Of a DNA stretch of 64,000 bases, positions 1-8,147 are shown piece by piece. Below the pieces are notes generated by a model that saw nothing but the letters and a program-made list of their open reading frames with translations, did not search any database and was not told where the DNA came from. Each line of letters begins with the position of its first letter. The first letter of the stretch is position 1. The DNA comes from a virus (Duplodnaviria > Heunggongvirae > Uroviricota > Caudoviricetes): the IMG/VR virus record IMGVR_UViG_3300010213_000001, positions 1 through 64,000 of that record, one strand, 5' to 3'. The translations under genes and the position numbers were made by a program.

Positions 1-57
1 TTCGAACCTGCAGTCTTCTGTATATAACAGACGCTCTTACCATTGAGCTATCAGAGT
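1..57 (-). tRNA. tRNA gene or tRNA-like element with atypical anticodon arm, 3' end cut by the window edge
   Basis: Reverse complement reads ACTCTGA-TA-GCTC-AATGGTAA-GAGC-G-TCTG-TTATATA-CAGA-AGACT-GCAGG-TTCGAA: canonical D arm and TTCGAA T loop, but only a 4-bp anticodon stem; anticodon ambiguous (ATA or TAT). Confidence 0.75.
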
Positions 58-549
58 AGGTGTGAGATATGTATATTATATCTCACTAAAATGTTTTTGA
101 TGGCATTTGGAATCCATCAGAAATACAGTTGTTTGGAATGAAGATATACATCTACAACTGTATAGTCACTATACTCTATCTAAAAAATTGACTAAGTCAA
201 GATAGGTTTTATAGTTATAGGAGATATAACTAAAGGGGTAGATTTAACTCCCTGAAAATATTTATTTATTGTTTTATTGGCTATATCTCACAACTGTCTC
301 AATATCTTACAACCTTTTTCAAGGCTGTTAATAAGGACAGTAGTAAGACTACCGATACGTCGCAATCCTTATTGTAATGGAAAATGGGTTTTAATCCTGT
401 GCCATTAGCTGTTAATCAGGGATAGATTTTAAATTGATTTGAGAGCCTCAACGAAACTCTCAAGTTTGTTATATCTCTCTTTCACTACCTTTTGAGCTTG
501 GTAGAGAAGAGCTTTCTTTAAAGGACTTACACCTTACGGATGCCTTTTA

Positions 550-741
550 TTATTTTTTAACTTTAACCATTGCTGCCATTACAGTAGCAGCTTGGTTATC
601 GGACATACGTCCGTATGTTAAAAAATATTTTAAGTTTCTTCTAGCCTCTAAGGCTAGATTAAATAGAGACTCATCTCTATTAAATAATCCTTTTTCTACT
701 GCAGCTTCTAATTGCTGCAATCTTTTTTTGTTTGTATTCAT
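550..741 (-). CDS. Small basic hypothetical protein (63 aa from ATG 741), copy 1
   Basis: ORF track 550-765; ATG of MNTNKKRLQQ at 741 is the more plausible start; lies between two CRISPR repeats. Confidence 0.6.
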   Translation of the reverse strand: MNTNKKRLQQLEAAVEKGLFNRDESLFNLALEARRNLKYFLTYGRMSDNQAATVMAAMVKVKK

Positions 742-818
742 TATACAGATTCCTTCCCCAATCACTTGGTTCAGAGGACACTCCTTAATGCCCTATTTTC
801 TCCTTACTCAAGGGAGAA

Positions 819-883
819 TAATAAAAAGAAAACCACTAGTTGAGTACCACACAGGAGCTACCTGTATTGTGGACTAATGGTTT
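819..883 (-). terminator. Long hairpin with U tract downstream of the mini-array (copy at 1492-1556)
   Basis: AAACCACTAGT (830-840) pairs with ACTAATGGTTT (873-883), with an inner CCACACAGG/CCTGTATTGTGG stem; the A run at 819-829 gives a U tract on the minus strand. Confidence 0.55.
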
Positions 884-958
884 ATTGTGAAATCAAATTC
901 ATAAGTTTAATTCCTTTAAGACCTTGTTAGGCAATCTTTCTTGTAGATTAAGATTGTA

Positions 959-1068
959 GTCGCAATCCTTATTGTAATGGAAAATGGGTTTTAATGGCTG
1001 TTAATAAGGACAGTAGTAAGACTACCGATACGTCGCAATCCTTATTGTAATGGAAAATGGGTTTTAAT
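959..1068 (-). CRISPR. CRISPR mini-array repeat-spacer-repeat (37-nt repeats, 36-nt spacer); further repeat copies at 359-395 and 1632-1668
   Basis: Identical GTCGCAATCCTTATTGTAATGGAAAATGGGTTTTAAT at 359, 959, 1032 and 1632. The reverse strand ATTAAAACCCATTTTCCATTACAATAAGGATTGCGAC resembles class 1 (I-B/III) repeats ending AAGGATTGAAAC/GAGAC, giving an 8-nt handle ATTGCGAC. Spacer at 996-1031. No cas genes seen in the window. Confidence 0.8.
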
Positions 1069-1222
1069 CCTGTGCCATTAGCTGTTAATCAGGGATAGAT
1101 TTTAAATTGATTTGAGAGCCTCAACGAAACTCTCAAGTTTGTTATATCTCTCTTTCACTACCTTTTGAGCTTGGTAGAGAAGAGCTTTCTTTAAAGGACT
1201 TACACCTTACGGATGCCTTTTA

Positions 1223-1414
1223 TTATTTTTTAACTTTAACCATTGCTGCCATTACAGTAGCAGCTTGGTTATCGGACATACGTCCGTATGTTAAAAAATA
1301 TTTTAAGTTTCTTCTAGCCTCTAAGGCTAGATTAAATAGAGACTCATCTCTATTAAATAATCCTTTTTCTACTGCAGCTTCTAATTGCTGCAATCTTTTT
1401 TTGTTTGTATTCAT
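1223..1414 (-). CDS. Small basic hypothetical protein, identical copy 2
   Basis: Duplicate of 550-741 at offset 673. Confidence 0.55.
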   Translation of the reverse strand: MNTNKKRLQQLEAAVEKGLFNRDESLFNLALEARRNLKYFLTYGRMSDNQAATVMAAMVKVKK

Positions 1415-1695
1415 TATACAGATTCCTTCCCCAATCACTTGGTTCAGAGGACACTCCTTAATGCCCTATTTTCTCCTTACTCAAGGGAGAATAATAAAAA
1501 GAAAACCACTAGTTGAGTACCACACAGGAGCTACCTGTATTGTGGACTAATGGTTTATTGTGAAATCAAATTCATAAGTTTAATTCCTTTAAGACCTTGT
1601 TAGGCAATCTTTCTTGTAGATTAAGATTGTAGTCGCAATCCTTATTGTAATGGAAAATGGGTTTTAATGGCTGTTAATAAGGACAGTAGTAAGAC

Positions 1696-1786
1696 TACCG
1701 ATACAAGTAGCAAGCTCTACCGATAAGCGTAACTGCATTACCGAAGTAATACAAGTGCTACCGATGACGCAGCTAAAAAGTACCGA
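1696..1786. repeat. Five TACCGA motifs at about 21-bp spacing (iteron-like)
   Basis: TACCGA at 1696, 1718, 1739, 1759 and 1781 (spacings 22, 21, 20, 22) in non-coding DNA. Confidence 0.75.
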
Positions 1787-1796
1787 AGCAGCCACT

Positions 1797-1830
1797 AAAA
1801 CAAAAGGTACGAGAGGTTAATCCCGTACCT
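1797..1830 (-). terminator. Rho-independent terminator of the 1860-2420 gene
   Basis: Minus strand AGGTACGGGA-TTAACC-TCTCGTACCT-TTTGTTTT. Confidence 0.75.
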
Positions 1831-1859
1831 AAGTTAATAACTTATGAACAACCCGAAGC

Positions 1860-2420
1860 CTAAGCTCCGAATTGTCCGATTACAGGTCGACCACCGAGGA
1901 ACTCGACTACTGCCTCAAAGACAGCATAGTCGGGCTGCTTATGACGACCCAATTCAGGTTGGACGATGTTGCCCAACTTTATGATAGAAGTAGCATCAGA
2001 GATGCTCAACCACGTACGTGCGATGGTGTTGTTGATAATGGCTGCACCTAAGGCAGTCGCATTACCTTTGTTGTAAATGGTATGAACCTTACCGTCGTCT
2101 GCAACTTTGGCAGCAACTTGCACACGGTGTGAGCCGTCAGGAAGATTTGAAGCAAAAGGCTCCTTCTCTGTGCCCGGCTTTTGAACCGAATACATTTCAG
2201 CACCTTTGTCTAACGCCTCCTTAACTGCAGACGCAACGCCTGTGTTTGGACCTCCCGTAGGGTCGTTAGACGTGTTATCAAGCTCGGCGTACAAGACGCC
2301 TTCTTTGATTAGGTCCTTGTTTTGGTCAAGGATTTCTGCCTTGCTTGTGCCCGGCAGATTGTTTTCTCTAGCGAAGTTCTTAAGTTCAGTCGCAGATGCA
2401 TCGATTTTGATCGATTTCAT
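1860..2420 (-). CDS. Hypothetical protein (186 aa, MKSIKIDAS...), GC-rich gene
   Basis: ORF track 1860-2528; the upstream extension runs through A/T tracts, so ATG 2420 is preferred; followed by a terminator. Confidence 0.75.
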   Translation of the reverse strand: MKSIKIDASATELKNFARENNLPGTSKAEILDQNKDLIKEGVLYAELDNTSNDPTGGPNTGVASAVKEALDKGAEMYSVQKPGTEKEPFASNLPDGSHRVQVAAKVADDGKVHTIYNKGNATALGAAIINNTIARTWLSISDATSIIKLGNIVQPELGRHKQPDYAVFEAVVEFLGGRPVIGQFGA

Positions 2421-2629
2421 AATGTAAGTGTTGGAATTGACCCTCCTCCCGGGGTTAGAAAATAAAAAAAAAATTGTTATAAATTGTGGAAAAAACGGAC
2501 AAAATGTTATTGTGGTTTTCCCAGCCAAACCATAGAGGGGTTTTTGTTATAATGCACATCACTCACATATAAACTTTAAAAAAAATTTTAAAAAAAATTT
2601 AAATTATAACGTAGCTGGATTATATTTCG

Positions 2630-2637
2630 TATCTTTG
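2630..2637 (+). promoter_or_regulatory. Bacteroidota-type sigma70 -7 promoter element (TAnnTTTG)
   Basis: CGTATCTTTGTG about 30 nt upstream of the first plus-strand ORF, at the strand switch. Confidence 0.6.
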
Positions 2638-2667
2638 TGCTAAACAAATTAATTTAATTATAACAAT

Positions 2668-2982
2668 ATGACACATTCGTCAGGACGAGAAGTTAATAAT
2701 GACTTTACAACTAACGTACAGCTAACTAGAGAAAGAGAGTTAGCTGCAATGATACAAACTAGAGAAGAAACTATTAAGAGTCTTCAAAAGCAATTAGAGG
2801 AAGCAGAAAACAAACTTAAGATTGCACAAGATGCATTAGTTTTAGCTAAGAGAACTAAATCAATTAGCTATATAGATATAAACTTACTACCTAGTGAGTA
2901 TTATGGAGAAACTATAAAGGATAAAATAAAAAAGTGTAAACTAGACACATCTAAGGGATTACCTATATTTTATATTAGATAA
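2668..2982 (+). CDS. Hypothetical coiled-coil protein
   Basis: 104-aa ORF, heptad-like TIKSLQKQLEEAENKLKIAQDAL. Confidence 0.7.
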   Translation: MTHSSGREVNNDFTTNVQLTRERELAAMIQTREETIKSLQKQLEEAENKLKIAQDALVLAKRTKSISYIDINLLPSEYYGETIKDKIKKCKLDTSKGLPIFYIR

Positions 2983-3005
2983 AATTAATTAACGAAAATA
3001 CAAAA

Positions 3006-3599
3006 ATGAAAAAGAAAATATCTGATAGTTTAGCTAAAGAACTGGAGGCTCGTGAGAGATTAGGCAAATTAATTGATAACCCTTATATAACTGGGTTTGT
3101 TCCTAAAGACTTGGATAGTGAAATTAAAGTAAATACAATGAATAATAAAACAAAGAAATTAGATAAGACAGTTTTAACTGGCAAAAAAGCGATAGAACTT
3201 AATACACCAGATAAGATATTTGATTACTTAGAATCTAAATATGTTCCAGAAGTATTTGGAGATAAAGTATTGTTATATATCTTCCCAGAAGATTTAACTG
3301 AAGATGTAGCATTAACTGAGAAAGGTTTAATGATTCATCATGATGATACTAAACAGATTAAGTTTAGAAGAATGGGAGATAAGGAGCAAACTGAAGAGAG
3401 ATTAACTCAACTAGGATTAGTAATTGGAGCAGGCAGTGGATTAGTTACTGATACAGGATCAGTAGTTACTATGCATGTTAAAAAAGGAGATTTAGTTTAT
3501 GTTGGGTATCATGCAGGAGGAGAAATAATGTATGATGGAGTAGGGTATAAGATATTAAGAGAGTACGATATTATATGTAAGCTACCAAAAAAGTTATAA
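3006..3599 (+). CDS. groES: Co-chaperonin GroES/Cpn10-like protein with N-terminal extension
   Basis: EVFGDKVLL...TEKGLMI...GLVIGAGSG...VKKGDLVYVGYHAGGEIMYDGVGYKILREYDII matches the Cpn10 pattern. Confidence 0.85.
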   Translation: MKKKISDSLAKELEARERLGKLIDNPYITGFVPKDLDSEIKVNTMNNKTKKLDKTVLTGKKAIELNTPDKIFDYLESKYVPEVFGDKVLLYIFPEDLTEDVALTEKGLMIHHDDTKQIKFRRMGDKEQTEERLTQLGLVIGAGSGLVTDTGSVVTMHVKKGDLVYVGYHAGGEIMYDGVGYKILREYDIICKLPKKL

Positions 3600-5708: not shown

Positions 5709-8147
5709 ATGAGTTATATAGTTGGGGAAATGGATAATGAAATTGAATCGTTTCCAAATATTACAGATCCAATAGAAGATAAGATACTTAACAAATATCC
5801 CATTAAAATACATAGGTATTTATCTAATGAGGTATTAAGTTTAGATAGTGTGCACCACAATGATGTACTTATGTCTAACACTGAAGCAAAGAGAAAAGGA
5901 TTGCCTTATTATGAGCCTTATGATTATAAAGGTAGAACTTTATATAAACTAAGAAATACAGAAATGTTTAGTATAATGTCTAAACAAAAGACAATAAAAG
6001 GTAAGTACAATCCATTTCCAATAGATACCAGAGAACATAGACAATTAACACTTAGGGAAATATATAGATGTTTATATGGCTATAAGTGTGGAGCAATAGA
6101 AATTACAGGATATAATTATTTTTATTTAAATTATAGTCTTGTAGATTTAACAGAAGAGATAAATGGAGTACCAGTAACTAGTTCAAAGCAACCTCTTTTT
6201 TGGAAGATTCACTTTGATTGGTTTTGGGCAGTTGATATAGCAGAGAAAGGTATAACTGAAGAAAAATACAATAGCTTACCTCTAGACATTAGAATATCTA
6301 AAAGATGTTTATCTGGCAAGAGACATATTGTTTGTGCTAAGACTAGACGTTCAGGATGGTCATTTTTAACTCAAGCTATGACAATGAGAGATGTAGCCAT
6401 TACAGATCCAAGATATATGAACTTTAAATTAGATTACATAATTGCATCTAAAGAGGATTATGTAAGTGATTTGTTTGACAAGATATTAACTACTAAATCT
6501 TATTTAGATAGAGAAACTGATTTTATGTTCAAACATTTCTATGATAGATATGATACTAAAACAAGAATTAGAGCTTCTGAAAAGGATGTAGAAGGAGTTG
6601 AGATTAGAACAGGTGGTGAAGCTATTGGAGTTGTCATAAATAAAGATGCTAAGAAAGTAAGGGGTAAAGGTGTGTATAAAGTATTTGCTGAAGAGTTTGG
6701 AGTATTTCCAGCTGGTACAAAAGCAATGGCATCAATCTTACCTTTAGTACAACCTGGTGGTATTGTGACAGGAATGTTTATTGGGTTTGGTACAGGTGGT
6801 GAGGAAACAAGTGATATATCTGCAATTAAAGACTGTTTTAATGAGCCTGATACTTTCAATATGATGGAGTTCGATAATAGTATTTTTGAAGAAGCTGCTA
6901 CAAATACAGGATTCTTTGTACCTTCAATGTATACTAATAGAAGATTCTTAGATAAAGATGGTAATGCTGATTTACTAGCTGCTCTAGAATATCAATTACA
7001 AGAGAGAAAAAAGAAAGAAGTCTTAGATGCAGAATCTATAGTTAAATTTAAAGCAGAGGAACCTATTTGTCCGTCTGATATATTTAACTTTGGATCAGCT
7101 GATAATCCATTTAATATAGATAAGTTAGTAGAAGCCAGAGAAGTTATAGAATCTGAATTTATAGAATCTAGAAGAGAGATTTTAAGGGGTGATACACAAA
7201 TTGCTCAGGCTCCATACCATAAATATAGATTAGATTATGTATCTAATAGTAGTGGACAGGTAGTAGCAGTTACAGCTGTAAGAGATAATAACGGTTATGT
7301 TTATATGAAAGAGAATGCTCCCGATACTTTAGATGAAATGGTTCCAAACGGATTATATATAGGAGCAATAGATAGCATTGACCAAGGAGCAGAAGAAAGC
7401 GCAGTCGGTATTAAAGGATCAAAATTAGCTATGGTGATTAAGAAAAGATCCGCACCATTTATAGAAAAAAATGGTAATTCATATGTTGCATTCTTATCTA
7501 TAAGGTCTGCTAAAGTAGAAGAAGCTTATGAAGAGGCACTAAAGTTAGCAATTTTATTTAATGCTTCTATTAACCTTGAGAGGTCTAAAATTAGAATTAT
7601 AAATCATTTCCAAAAGAGTTCATTCTTTGGAGATCAGTCATACAGATTTTGTGATGAATTAATGGCGCTCAATGATAGTGCTAATAGATTTGCCAAAACG
7701 AAGAAAATGTTTGGTACTGCACCAACTACAAAGAATAATCAATTAATGGATTCATATTTAGCAACATACATCAATAATTTTGCATTGCAAATGACATTCC
7801 TACCTTTGATTGAAGAGTGCTTATACTACACTGTTAAACAAAGAACTAAGTTTGATAATGTTGTAGCACTAGGTTTATGTGAACTGTATGATGAATCTCT
7901 TATTTTAGCAGGTAAAGCTCCTACAAACCCAGATAAAGAGTTTAAGTTACTTCCTCGATACGTCTATAAGACTGTAAATGGTAAAAGAGTTAAAGTACTA
8001 GACAATGCTGGTGCTAATGAAATGAGAATACATAGTCAACGTAAGTTCACACACACTGAAAGAGGAGCAAATGGTGGATTAATTATGAAATATGGGTATG
8101 TAATAGAAGACGTTGATGGAGCAGATAATGATCTGCAAGACAATTAA
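5709..8147 (+). CDS. terL: Terminase large subunit (crAss-like)
   Basis: ITGYNYFYLNY, Walker A-like AKTRRSGWS, RGK..FAEEFG Walker B, FGTGG motif, RNase H-like IDSIDQG and FDNVVALG. Confidence 0.93.
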   Translation: MSYIVGEMDNEIESFPNITDPIEDKILNKYPIKIHRYLSNEVLSLDSVHHNDVLMSNTEAKRKGLPYYEPYDYKGRTLYKLRNTEMFSIMSKQKTIKGKYNPFPIDTREHRQLTLREIYRCLYGYKCGAIEITGYNYFYLNYSLVDLTEEINGVPVTSSKQPLFWKIHFDWFWAVDIAEKGITEEKYNSLPLDIRISKRCLSGKRHIVCAKTRRSGWSFLTQAMTMRDVAITDPRYMNFKLDYIIASKEDYVSDLFDKILTTKSYLDRETDFMFKHFYDRYDTKTRIRASEKDVEGVEIRTGGEAIGVVINKDAKKVRGKGVYKVFAEEFGVFPAGTKAMASILPLVQPGGIVTGMFIGFGTGGEETSDISAIKDCFNEPDTFNMMEFDNSIFEEAATNTGFFVPSMYTNRRFLDKDGNADLLAALEYQLQERKKKEVLDAESIVKFKAEEPICPSDIFNFGSADNPFNIDKLVEAREVIESEFIESRREILRGDTQIAQAPYHKYRLDYVSNSSGQVVAVTAVRDNNGYVYMKENAPDTLDEMVPNGLYIGAIDSIDQGAEESAVGIKGSKLAMVIKKRSAPFIEKNGNSYVAFLSIRSAKVEEAYEEALKLAILFNASINLERSKIRIINHFQKSSFFGDQSYRFCDELMALNDSANRFAKTKKMFGTAPTTKNNQLMDSYLATYINNFALQMTFLPLIEECLYYTVKQRTKFDNVVALGLCELYDESLILAGKAPTNPDKEFKLLPRYVYKTVNGKRVKVLDNAGANEMRIHSQRKFTHTERGANGGLIMKYGYVIEDVDGADNDLQDN

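What the first reader, a model, noticed from the sequence alone, without database searches (positions are those of the whole stretch)
323..1704. CRISPR mini-array cassette inserted, in tandem, inside its own protospacer (S-R-X-R-S-R-X-R-S)
Seen: a 36-nt sequence S (GGCTGTTAATAAGGACAGTAGTAAGACTACCGATAC) at 323, 996 and 1669; a 37-nt repeat R at 359, 959, 1032 and 1632; and a 563-nt segment X with a 63-aa ORF and hairpins. The middle S is a normal-length spacer between two repeats. The outer copies join unique phage DNA, and S contains the first of five phased TACCGA motifs that continue rightward, so S looks native to this locus. Deleting the insert leaves flank-S-flank. Known: phages carry Cas-less mini-arrays against competitors, solitary repeat units can act as RNA anti-CRISPRs, and spacer-protospacer recombination between CRISPR loci and phages has been shown in staphylococci. 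Inference: a 673-bp circle (R-S-R-X) integrated Campbell-style through its spacer and amplified. This would be a minimal CRISPR-addressed hitch-hiking element or a captured competitor array, and each S copy now has repeat sequence on at least one side, which may mask it as self. A de Bruijn loop through another genome's array would give exactly the same string, so an assembly artefact is a serious alternative.
Basis: partly seen in the sequence, partly recalled or inferred. Interest (0 to 1): 0.85.

Follow-up and report, generated by a model that had tools for sequence, protein, structure and literature searches.

The report
CRISPR cassette inside its own target
The assembled genome of a large bacterial virus carries a small piece of CRISPR 'memory' DNA plus an unknown gene exactly at the sequence that the memory matches, which likely records the memory recombining into its own target and would explain how viruses pick up CRISPR mini-arrays, although an assembly error is not excluded.

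Summary
The string S-R-X-R-S-R-X-R-S is exact in a 244.7-kb crAss-like phage contig. R is a real CRISPR repeat (35/37 to a Cytophagales type III-B array). S is native at both ends: with the insert removed it pairs with the left flank in a long hairpin and starts the right flank's phased motifs. X is unique, unusually hairpin-packed, and encodes a 63-aa protein without homologues. Best reading (0.5): a 673-bp R-S-R-X circle, likely looped out of a CRISPR locus, recombined into its own protospacer. The same layout occurs in 2 of 34 other viral-contig arrays surveyed, one with mismatched copies that share only 20 exact bases. A pure graph join needs k ≤37 and still needs the circle; no reads were available, so an artefact keeps about 0.22. 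Two copies are not established: one insert plus a free circle explains every k-mer. The guide has the same sense as the predicted native RNA, so it is probably non-interfering, and 'self-masking' covers only two of three S copies. It matters as a candidate natural route by which phages capture mini-arrays beside their targets.

The parts
285..349 (-). Native long hairpin (closing GAAA loop) that pairs S with the left flank; crosses the left junction
   Evidence: about 23 expected pairs between S and left flank; gain of -11.8 kcal/mol against -2.1 +/- 2.2 for 2000 random flanks (fraction 0.0005)
323..358 (.). S copy 1, continuous with the native left flank
359..395 (-). CRISPR repeat R copy 1, Bacteroidota type III-B family, read on the minus strand
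396..958 (.). X copy 1: 563-nt segment of unknown origin, 34.6% GC, five perfect hairpins
550..741 (-). 63-aa ORF without homologues, predicted three-helix bundle; coding sequence packed with perfect inverted repeats
   Evidence: (pLDDT 91 from one sequence)
959..995 (-). R copy 2
996..1031 (-). S copy 2, a spacer-length unit between two repeats; would give a crRNA of minus-strand sense
1032..1068 (-). R copy 3
1069..1631 (.). X copy 2, identical to copy 1 (ORF copy at 1223-1414, minus)
1632..1668 (-). R copy 4
1669..1704 (.). S copy 3, continuous with the native right flank; its 3' flank matches the repeat anti-tag at 0 of 8 positions
1696..1786 (-). Five phased TACCGA motifs, the first inside S; part of a predicted native structured RNA
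   Evidence: empty allele z -5.7 on minus, -2.5 on plus
1805..1830 (-). Terminator-like hairpin after the 186-aa gene
1860..2420 (-). Native 186-aa orphan gene, first gene of the leftward arm (context)

Best explanation
The contig holds a 1,346-bp insert (two identical R-X-R-S units) inside a 36-base stretch of native phage DNA, and it most likely arose when a 673-bp circle, probably looped out of a type III-B-family CRISPR locus by repeat-to-repeat recombination and carrying a spacer against this phage, recombined into that spacer's own target. Steps: (1) shown: R is a type III-B-family repeat, S is native, the borders fall exactly on repeat and spacer ends; (2) inferred: a donor locus had R-S-R-X-R or R-X-R-S-R, X being a gene-sized piece between two repeats; (3) inferred: recombination between the outer repeats released R-S-R-X; (4) inferred: a single crossover in the 36 shared bases, by host recombination since no phage integrase or annealase was found, put it into the phage; (5) inferred: phage and spacer could coexist because the guide has the same sense as the phage's predicted local RNA and so would not trigger type III immunity; (6) open: whether the second unit is a true tandem copy or an assembler's second pass round a loop.
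For: R is 35/37 identical to the 70 exact-core repeats of a Cytophagales array flanked by cas1, cas2, cmr1, cas10/cmr2, cmr3, a RAMP and cmr5 and 35/37 to a second array. S pairs with the left flank (p 0.0005) and begins the right-flank motif series. With k of 55, 77 or 127, 36, 80 and 162 contig k-mers exist in neither the empty allele nor the circle, so the junctions would have to come from reads. The same layout, an array piece bounded by whole repeats and flanked by a spacer-length duplication, is in 2 of 34 distinct viral-contig arrays with two or more repeats; 0 of 10,920 cross-paired flanks score as high. In L021 the two 36-nt copies differ at 2 sites and share only 20 exact bases, the four repeats are identical, and removal of the insert restores an ordinary gene start. 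Gene-sized cargo between two repeats of this family exists in a bacterium: G410 has an EcoRV-type nuclease and a D12 methylase between two such repeats. Spacer-target recombination is reported in the laboratory (review PMC8616872, passage); type III-B spacers enter in either orientation and only antisense ones interfere (PMC5576922, passages).
Against: No reads, no empty allele, no donor array with S and no second occurrence of X or exact R were found. All copies of S, R and X are identical, as a graph loop would also give. The assembler and its k are unknown. Cas1, tyrosine integrase, Erf, RecT, RecA and Rad52-like genes were each not found in G000 (the one weak AAA_24 hit lies in a 2,974-codon frame), so the recombinase is assumed. 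36 bp is short for homologous recombination (own knowledge). The model does not explain why X is so hairpin-rich (ORF z -8 against a minimum of -5.3 in 139 phage windows). L059 is a weaker parallel: 26 exact shared bases, and all three of its spacers have partial matches nearby. No empty allele was found for L021 or L059 either.
Confidence: 0.5

Rival explanations
1. Assembly join: the phage has the empty site, and a separate real R-S-R-X circle or tandem in the same sample was threaded into the contig through the shared 36-mer.
For: At k of 37 or less every contig k-mer is supplied by the empty allele plus the circle. All copies are identical. The locus lies 322 bases from a contig end that cuts a tRNA. 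The record is seen only as itself: X's protein and four phage proteins each have one member on 2 contigs.
Against: Common metagenome assemblers finish at k of 55 or more (own knowledge; this record's assembler is unknown), where 36 or more junction k-mers have no other source. An ordinary long host array would offer many other exits from R, so the donor must in any case be circle-like. L021 shows the layout with only 20 exact shared bases.
Confidence: 0.22
2. X-R-S-R is a self-standing single-stranded mini-circle, a satellite of this phage that would use its spacer as an attachment site and be copied or packaged with the helper.
For: The unit folds at z -6.9 (RNA, minus), -5.3 (RNA, plus), -5.7 (DNA); the ORF folds equally on both strands (z -8.1 and -7.9), unlike the one-sided native RNA; five perfect hairpins in X against a mean of 1.0, reached by 1 of 429 phage windows and 0 of 34 host-locus windows. 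The ORF gives a confident fold. The spacer matches its carrier at 36/36.
Against: No relative of X or of its protein anywhere searched; no Rep, integrase or ribozyme; no Bacteroidota-type promoter motif in the unit; L021 and L059 have the layout with plain array pieces, so no dedicated element is needed.
Confidence: 0.17
3. Off-target Cas1-Cas2 integration: S is a repeat-length target duplication and R-X-R was pasted twice like an oversized spacer.
For: S (36) is within one base of the repeat length (37); repeated integration at one site gives this alternation; a clean spacer-sized case turned up in the survey (L074 = L112: 32-nt duplication, 36-nt insert).
Against: The insert is 637 nt, not spacer-sized, and ends exactly on whole repeats at both sides; S is not within 13 mismatches of R on either strand; in L021 the duplicated copies differ while the repeats do not.
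Confidence: 0.07
4. A native phage mini-array locus that took a spacer from itself and then duplicated locally, with no circle or outside donor.
For: X is not clearly foreign: Markov score z -1.8 (18 of 429 windows lower) and GC3 of its ORF 0.22 against 0.19 for the terminase.
Against: The insert splits a predicted native RNA whose halves fit together; no cas1 in G000; X has no paralogue in the genome; published mini-array spacers target relatives, not the carrier (PMC6858448, Discussion).
Confidence: 0.04

Closest known systems
Spacer-protospacer recombination between CRISPR loci and phages (Varble et al. 2019, Nat Microbiol; seen only as cited in review PMC8616872; the paper itself is not held)
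   Same: A spacer and its target serve as the homology that joins CRISPR DNA to phage DNA; the product has the shared sequence at both junctions.
   Different: Reported in laboratory staphylococci as transducing particles; here a natural near-complete phage record carries a small, cas-less array-derived insert with its own gene, in a type III-B repeat family.
Cas-less phage CRISPR mini-arrays (PMC11656645 section 5; PMC6858448 passages and Discussion)
   Same: One spacer between host-type repeats in a phage without cas1; would rely on host Cas proteins.
   Different: The spacer matches its own carrier at 36/36 and the array sits inside that match; the guide is of the non-interfering sense for the predicted local RNA; a 563-nt gene-bearing piece lies between repeats. 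PMC6858448 suggests leaderless mini-arrays may get spacers by recombination with host arrays; this looks like a snapshot of such a step.
Single repeat units / RNA anti-CRISPRs (PMC11656645 section 5)
   Same: Host-type repeats in a phage transcript could yield Cas6-cut RNAs that occupy Cas proteins (inference).
   Different: Four full repeats with a proper spacer, not a solitary unit; no expression evidence.
Neo-CRISPR off-target spacer integration (Nivala et al. 2018; seen only as cited in 10.1101/148544)
   Same: A repeat-length stretch of native DNA alternates with inserts.
   Different: Inserts here are 637 nt and bounded by true repeats; the duplicated stretch does not resemble the repeat.
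Bacteroides fragilis type III-B (Cmr) repeat (PMC10600005, passages and supplement rows)
   Same: Same repeat family and 3' end pattern; Cas6 leaves an 8-nt 5' handle; fixes the reading strand as minus.
   Different: R is closer to a Cytophagales repeat (35/37); the phage encodes no detected cas1.

Membership tests
Bacteroidota type III-B CRISPR repeat | Near-identity to repeats of an array beside cmr/cas10 genes | tested here: met
   35/37 to L001 array with cas1, cas2, cmr1, cas10, cmr3, cmr5
Bacteroidota type III-B CRISPR repeat | Spacer of family-typical length between repeats | tested here: met
   S2 is 36 nt; mode 36 in L001, 21 of 69 intervals
Phage CRISPR mini-array | One or two spacers, no cas genes | tested here: met
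   One spacer-length unit; Cas1 not found in the 96%-complete record; other cas families were not searched genome-wide
Phage CRISPR mini-array | Repeat identical to the host's | tested here: inconclusive
   Host not found; no exact R in three collections; nearest 35/37
Phage CRISPR mini-array | Spacer targets related viruses, not the carrier | tested here: not met
   Spacer is identical to the carrier's own native sequence; relatives were not found, so targeting of them is untested
Phage CRISPR mini-array | Leader or promoter before the first repeat | tested here: inconclusive
   A TAATCAG word is shared with the L001 leader side but with none of 7 other loci of the family, and at another distance; no -7 motif
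Single repeat unit / Racr | Solitary repeat | tested here: not met
   Four full repeats
Spacer-protospacer recombinant | Shared spacer sequence at both junctions, borders on repeat ends | tested here: met
Spacer-protospacer recombinant | Physical linkage of CRISPR DNA and phage DNA | not testable with these tools
   No sequencing run was listed
Spacer-protospacer recombinant | Donor array holding the spacer | tested here: inconclusive
   S not found exactly in viral contigs; not among the spacers of L001 or L002; S itself was not scanned in the metagenome or genome collections
Neo-CRISPR (off-target Cas1-Cas2 integration) | Duplication of repeat length | tested here: inconclusive
   36 nt against a 37-nt repeat
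Neo-CRISPR (off-target Cas1-Cas2 integration) | Spacer-sized insert | tested here: not met
   637 nt between S copies
Satellite or viroid-like circle | Replication or processing module (Rep, integrase, ribozyme) | tested here: not met
   Rfam finds only a tRNA in 1-3000 at E up to 1; ORF63 has no PHROGs or Pfam hit and no significant fold match
Satellite or viroid-like circle | Free circular form | not testable with these tools
   No reads
Regulatory mini-array (10.1101/2023.03.03.530964, passages) | Seed-side partial match of the guide to a nearby promoter | tested here: not met
   The only S-X match is 12 of 13 nt at the guide's 3' end, reached by 6% of random windows

The most novel reading that the evidence does not exclude
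R-S-R-X is a 673-nt CRISPR-addressed mini-circle: a satellite that keeps a spacer not as a weapon but as an attachment site, integrates into its helper phage's own protospacer, and uses host Cas6 cuts at its repeats to release a discrete, hairpin-packed 600-nt RNA encoding a 63-aa protein; plain array circles (L021, L059) do the same passively, and this is a general route by which phages gain mini-arrays next to their targets.
Probability: 0.18. Interest if true: 0.9.

Novelty: new variant of a known kind. Interest (0 to 1): 0.66.

Why it matters
How phages acquire Cas-less mini-arrays, and why their spacers so often match genes next to the array in related phages, is open: PMC6858448 (Discussion) only suggests recombination with host arrays. 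Insertion of an array-derived circle at its own protospacer would explain both at once, because the array lands beside its target and, once the native copy drifts, is left aiming at the same locus in relatives. It gives a simple signature (a spacer-length duplication around an array) that can be counted across virus databases; here it was in 2 of 34 arrays besides this one. It would also show that a spacer of non-protective orientation can act as a landing site and carry gene-sized cargo into a phage.

Tried and rejected
Sequencing runs for window 1-2700: none was listed; no evidence either way, and read laying could not be used. Exact R: 0 hits in viral, genome and metagenome collections; exact S: 0 in viral contigs; the 24-nt R core: 0 viral, 1 genome, 1 metagenome locus. 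These scans may leave out the window's own or very close records. R with up to 3 mismatches: 1 of 401 genomes of the order; looser cores: 3 of 401 and 5 of 401 genomes of the phylum, nearly the same sample twice. Relatives of ORF63 and ORF186: none by tblastn in viral contigs, word search, full phmmer of ORF63 over 1.84 billion proteins, ESM Atlas features, PHROGs, Pfam; fold searches gave no match at E 0.001; the wide structural search was not run. The unit against phage and plasmid records: one 27-nt chance-level match, none. Spacers of L001 and L002 do not match G000 convincingly. Rejected as not significant: a decayed repeat at the right end of X (13 of 15, reached by 4% of random windows) and the S-like word at X's start (6%); X's terminal 36-mers as hidden spacers against this phage (11 and 14 mismatches, inside the shuffle range); X's start as a leader. 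L029 scored 24.5 in the first survey pass but is a diverged tandem copy of a repeat-plus-spacer unit and does not count; three scores of 45 were indexing errors at contig ends. No earlier scan notes on this genome or sequence. Literature: searches returned 0 papers; 72 one unrelated listing; others listed 7, 12 and 5 papers, none describing by title or abstract start an array inserted in its own protospacer in natural phages. Most subscription papers are outside this library, so this is weak evidence of novelty. PMC7105378 (passages) gave nothing of use. Supplement file 2 of PMC10600005 was not searchable; bioRxiv supplements (the viral mini-array table of 10.1101/2023.03.03.530964) were not seen and may list such cases.

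Full report
Observation. S (36 nt) stands at 323, 996 and 1669, R (37 nt) at 359, 959, 1032 and 1632, and the two X copies (396-958, 1069-1631) are identical; the 673-nt period starts at 323 and ends at 1704. The window is the start of a 244,700-nt, 30% GC virus record, linear and 96% complete by CheckV. Nothing else in it comes closer than 13 mismatches to S or R, and X has no second locus.

The carrier. The terminase (5709-8147) and portal hit PHROGs families, and the terminase's best named relatives are crAss-like and Flavobacterium phages at 23-30% identity; very long ORFs lie at 62-98 kb. So this is a large, distant crAss-like phage, probably of Bacteroidota. The locus sits near the strand switch, at the start of the leftward arm, between a 186-aa orphan gene and a tRNA cut by the contig end. 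Cas1, tyrosine integrase, Erf, RecT, RecA and Rad52-like families were each not found in it. No close relative was found, so no empty allele could be read.

R is a CRISPR repeat. Its 24-nt core found one array among the genome contigs, in a Cytophagales genome (L001, 70 exact-core repeats), and one in the metagenome contigs (L002, 15 matches); both repeats are 35/37 identical to R. L001 lies beside cas2, cas1, cmr1, cas10/cmr2, cmr3, a RAMP and cmr5: type III-B. Three things fix the reading strand as minus: decayed repeats at L001's left end with cas2 at its right, the Bacteroides fragilis repeat RNA ending in AUUAAGAC with an 8-nt handle (PMC10600005, passages and supplement rows), and Rfam's CRISPR-DR7 match on the minus strand of the related L021 repeats. 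The middle S has the modal spacer length of L001 (36 nt, 21 of 69 intervals).

S is native at both ends. With the insert removed in a script, S pairs over about 23 bases with the left flank in a long minus-strand hairpin closed by GAAA, and over about 7 with the right flank; the gain from the true left flank is -11.8 kcal/mol against -2.1 +/- 2.2 for 2000 random flanks (fraction 0.0005). S also holds the first of five TACCGA motifs spaced 20-22 nt apart. The 397-nt empty region folds at z -5.7 on the minus strand and -2.5 on the plus strand, which suggests a native structured RNA read leftward (inference; no expression data). The insert therefore splits that region while leaving each S copy joined to its own flank.

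X. It is 34.6% GC and only mildly unlike the phage (18 of 429 windows score lower; ORF GC3 0.22 against 0.19 for the terminase). Its 63-aa ORF has no relative by word search, by phmmer over 1.84 billion proteins, in PHROGs or Pfam, yet folds from one sequence into a confident three-helix bundle (pLDDT 91) with no significant structural match (the ESM Atlas lists a 62-aa viral cluster at TM 0.73, under its naming bar). The striking property is structure: the unit folds at z -5.3 to -6.9, X has five perfect hairpins where phage windows average 1.0 (1 of 429 reaches five; 0 of 34 host-locus windows), and the ORF folds at z -8.1 and -7.9 on the two strands, against a minimum of -5.3 in the 139 phage windows scored before the time limit. 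This is unexplained. Weak hints that X begins with a leader, ends in a decayed repeat or hides spacers did not pass controls.

Is it an artefact? No run was listed, so only logic is available. For k of 37 or less the empty allele plus a 673-nt circle supplies every contig k-mer; for k of 55, 77 and 127, 36, 80 and 162 k-mers belong to neither and would have to come from reads across flank-S-R and R-S-flank. Common assemblers end at k of 55 or more (own knowledge), but this record's assembler is unknown. A small-k join would also need a donor whose repeats lead only to S and X, that is, the circle. So the R-S-R-X unit with a spacer identical to this phage is robust under either reading (about 0.85), physical insertion less so (about 0.7 over the rivals that need it). 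The copy number is not established: one inserted copy plus a free circle explains every k-mer at k 55-127.

Parallels. Two pattern scans of viral contigs gave 10 loci of this repeat family and 122 loci of a recalled type I-C motif (the scan stopped after 14 of 64 parts). Of these 132, 20 were dropped for short flanks and 7 as duplicates, leaving 105. Among 34 with two or more repeats, 2 have a spacer-length duplication on both borders: L021 (1 of 3 type III) and L059 (1 of 31 type I-C); 0 of 10,920 cross-paired flanks score as high. L021 reads S'-R-sp-R-sp-R-sp-R-S in the first codons of a 98-aa gene; the copies differ at two sites, share only 20 exact bases, the repeats are identical, and the last repeat rebuilds the ATG. 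That fits a circle excised from an array whose spacer came from a related strain, and it is hard to get from a graph join. L059 is weaker: 26 exact shared bases, and all three spacers have partial matches within about 500 nt, as for a competitor-type mini-array. Empty alleles were not found for either. In a bacterium, G410, two isolated repeats of R's family enclose a 1.85-kb EcoRV-type nuclease and D12 methylase pair, so gene-sized cargo between such repeats exists and is a model for R-X-R.

How it likely works. A donor locus with R-S-R-X-R (or R-X-R-S-R) would release an R-S-R-X circle by recombination between its outer repeats; one crossover in the 36 shared bases would put it into the phage and duplicate S. 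Both steps are inferred. Type III guides must be antisense to a transcript, and type III-B spacers are taken in either orientation (PMC5576922, passages). The guide here has the same sense as the predicted leftward RNA, so it would likely not interfere, which lets phage and spacer meet in a living cell. For the same reason 'self-masking' is not needed, and it is incomplete: the 3' flank of a plus-strand target matches the anti-tag at 8 of 8 positions for copies 1 and 2 but 0 of 8 for copy 3. If leftward transcription crosses the insert, host Cas6 would cut it into a 73-nt crRNA and a 600-nt tag-X RNA; a terminator-like hairpin at 1805-1830 leaves that open.

Comparison with what is known. It works like the spacer-target recombination reported for staphylococci (seen only through review PMC8616872) and looks like a phage mini-array (PMC11656645 section 5), but fails one defining feature of mini-arrays: the spacer matches its carrier. 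It is not a single repeat unit, and not a neo-CRISPR unit (known to me through 10.1101/148544), whose insert is spacer-sized. PMC6858448 (Discussion) notes that phage mini-array spacers target adjacent genes of relatives and suggests recombination with host arrays; insertion at the protospacer would produce exactly that adjacency. My searches listed no paper on natural arrays inside their own protospacer, but the library lacks most subscription papers.

Verdict. Observation confirmed; interpretation partly supported. Most likely a real, recent spacer-guided insertion of an array-derived circle with gene-sized cargo (0.5); assembly join of a real circle 0.22; dedicated satellite 0.17; off-target Cas1-Cas2 0.07; native duplication 0.04. 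New variant of a known kind, interest 0.66, held down by the lack of reads and of any second X, and raised by the independent parallels and the directly countable signature.

Noticed in passing
window 58-358 plus 1705-1800, minus strand: The empty allele looks like a native 400-nt structured RNA (z -5.7 minus, -2.5 plus) with five phased TACCGA motifs, between an orphan gene's terminator and a tRNA; no Rfam match.
   Followed up: partly
window 1860-2420, minus strand: 186-aa orphan gene, a strong compositional outlier (Markov z -8.4, GC3 0.49 against 0.19); by eye its N-terminus resembles small helical nucleic-acid-binding motifs, which Pfam does not confirm.
   Followed up: partly
window 57-82 and G000:C1 244672-244697: A 26-nt motif, part of a palindrome, follows tRNA-like sequence at both ends of the contig; the tRNA at 1-57 is cut, and the ends do not join.
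   Followed up: no
L021 1965-2295: Four type III-family repeats and three spacers inserted in the first codons of a 98-aa phage gene, flanked by a 36-nt duplication with two mismatches; the last repeat rebuilds the start codon.
   Followed up: yes
L059 1169-1394 (minus strand): Three type I-C repeats flanked by a roughly 30-nt duplication at a gene end in a complete 41.7-kb phage; all three spacers have partial matches within about 500 nt in the same genome.
   Followed up: partly
L146 (G410:C2 94505-96430): Two isolated type III-family repeats, 34 nt identical, enclose a low-GC EcoRV-type nuclease plus D12 methylase pair next to a type I restriction subunit: a repeat-flanked defence cassette. 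The genome has cas1 genes elsewhere.
   Followed up: partly
L074 and L112: The same insertion in two records: a 32-nt duplication around a 36-nt insert made of part of a type I-C repeat plus 11 nt, in what looks by eye like a transposase gene; fits off-target spacer integration of a piece of an array.
   Followed up: partly
L080, L089, L106, L141: Single type I-C repeats with 11-17-nt duplications beginning right after the repeat and recurring just before it: 4 of 67 single-repeat I-C loci score 11 or more against 11 of 10,920 cross pairs; may record how solitary repeats enter phages.
   Followed up: partly
L020 around 2001: A type III-family repeat with a second, decayed copy about 200 nt away in a viral contig.
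   Followed up: no
window 3006-3599 and about 2630: GroES-like co-chaperonin domain gene near the terminase; a Bacteroidota-type -7 promoter word (recalled consensus) before the rightward arm.
   Followed up: no
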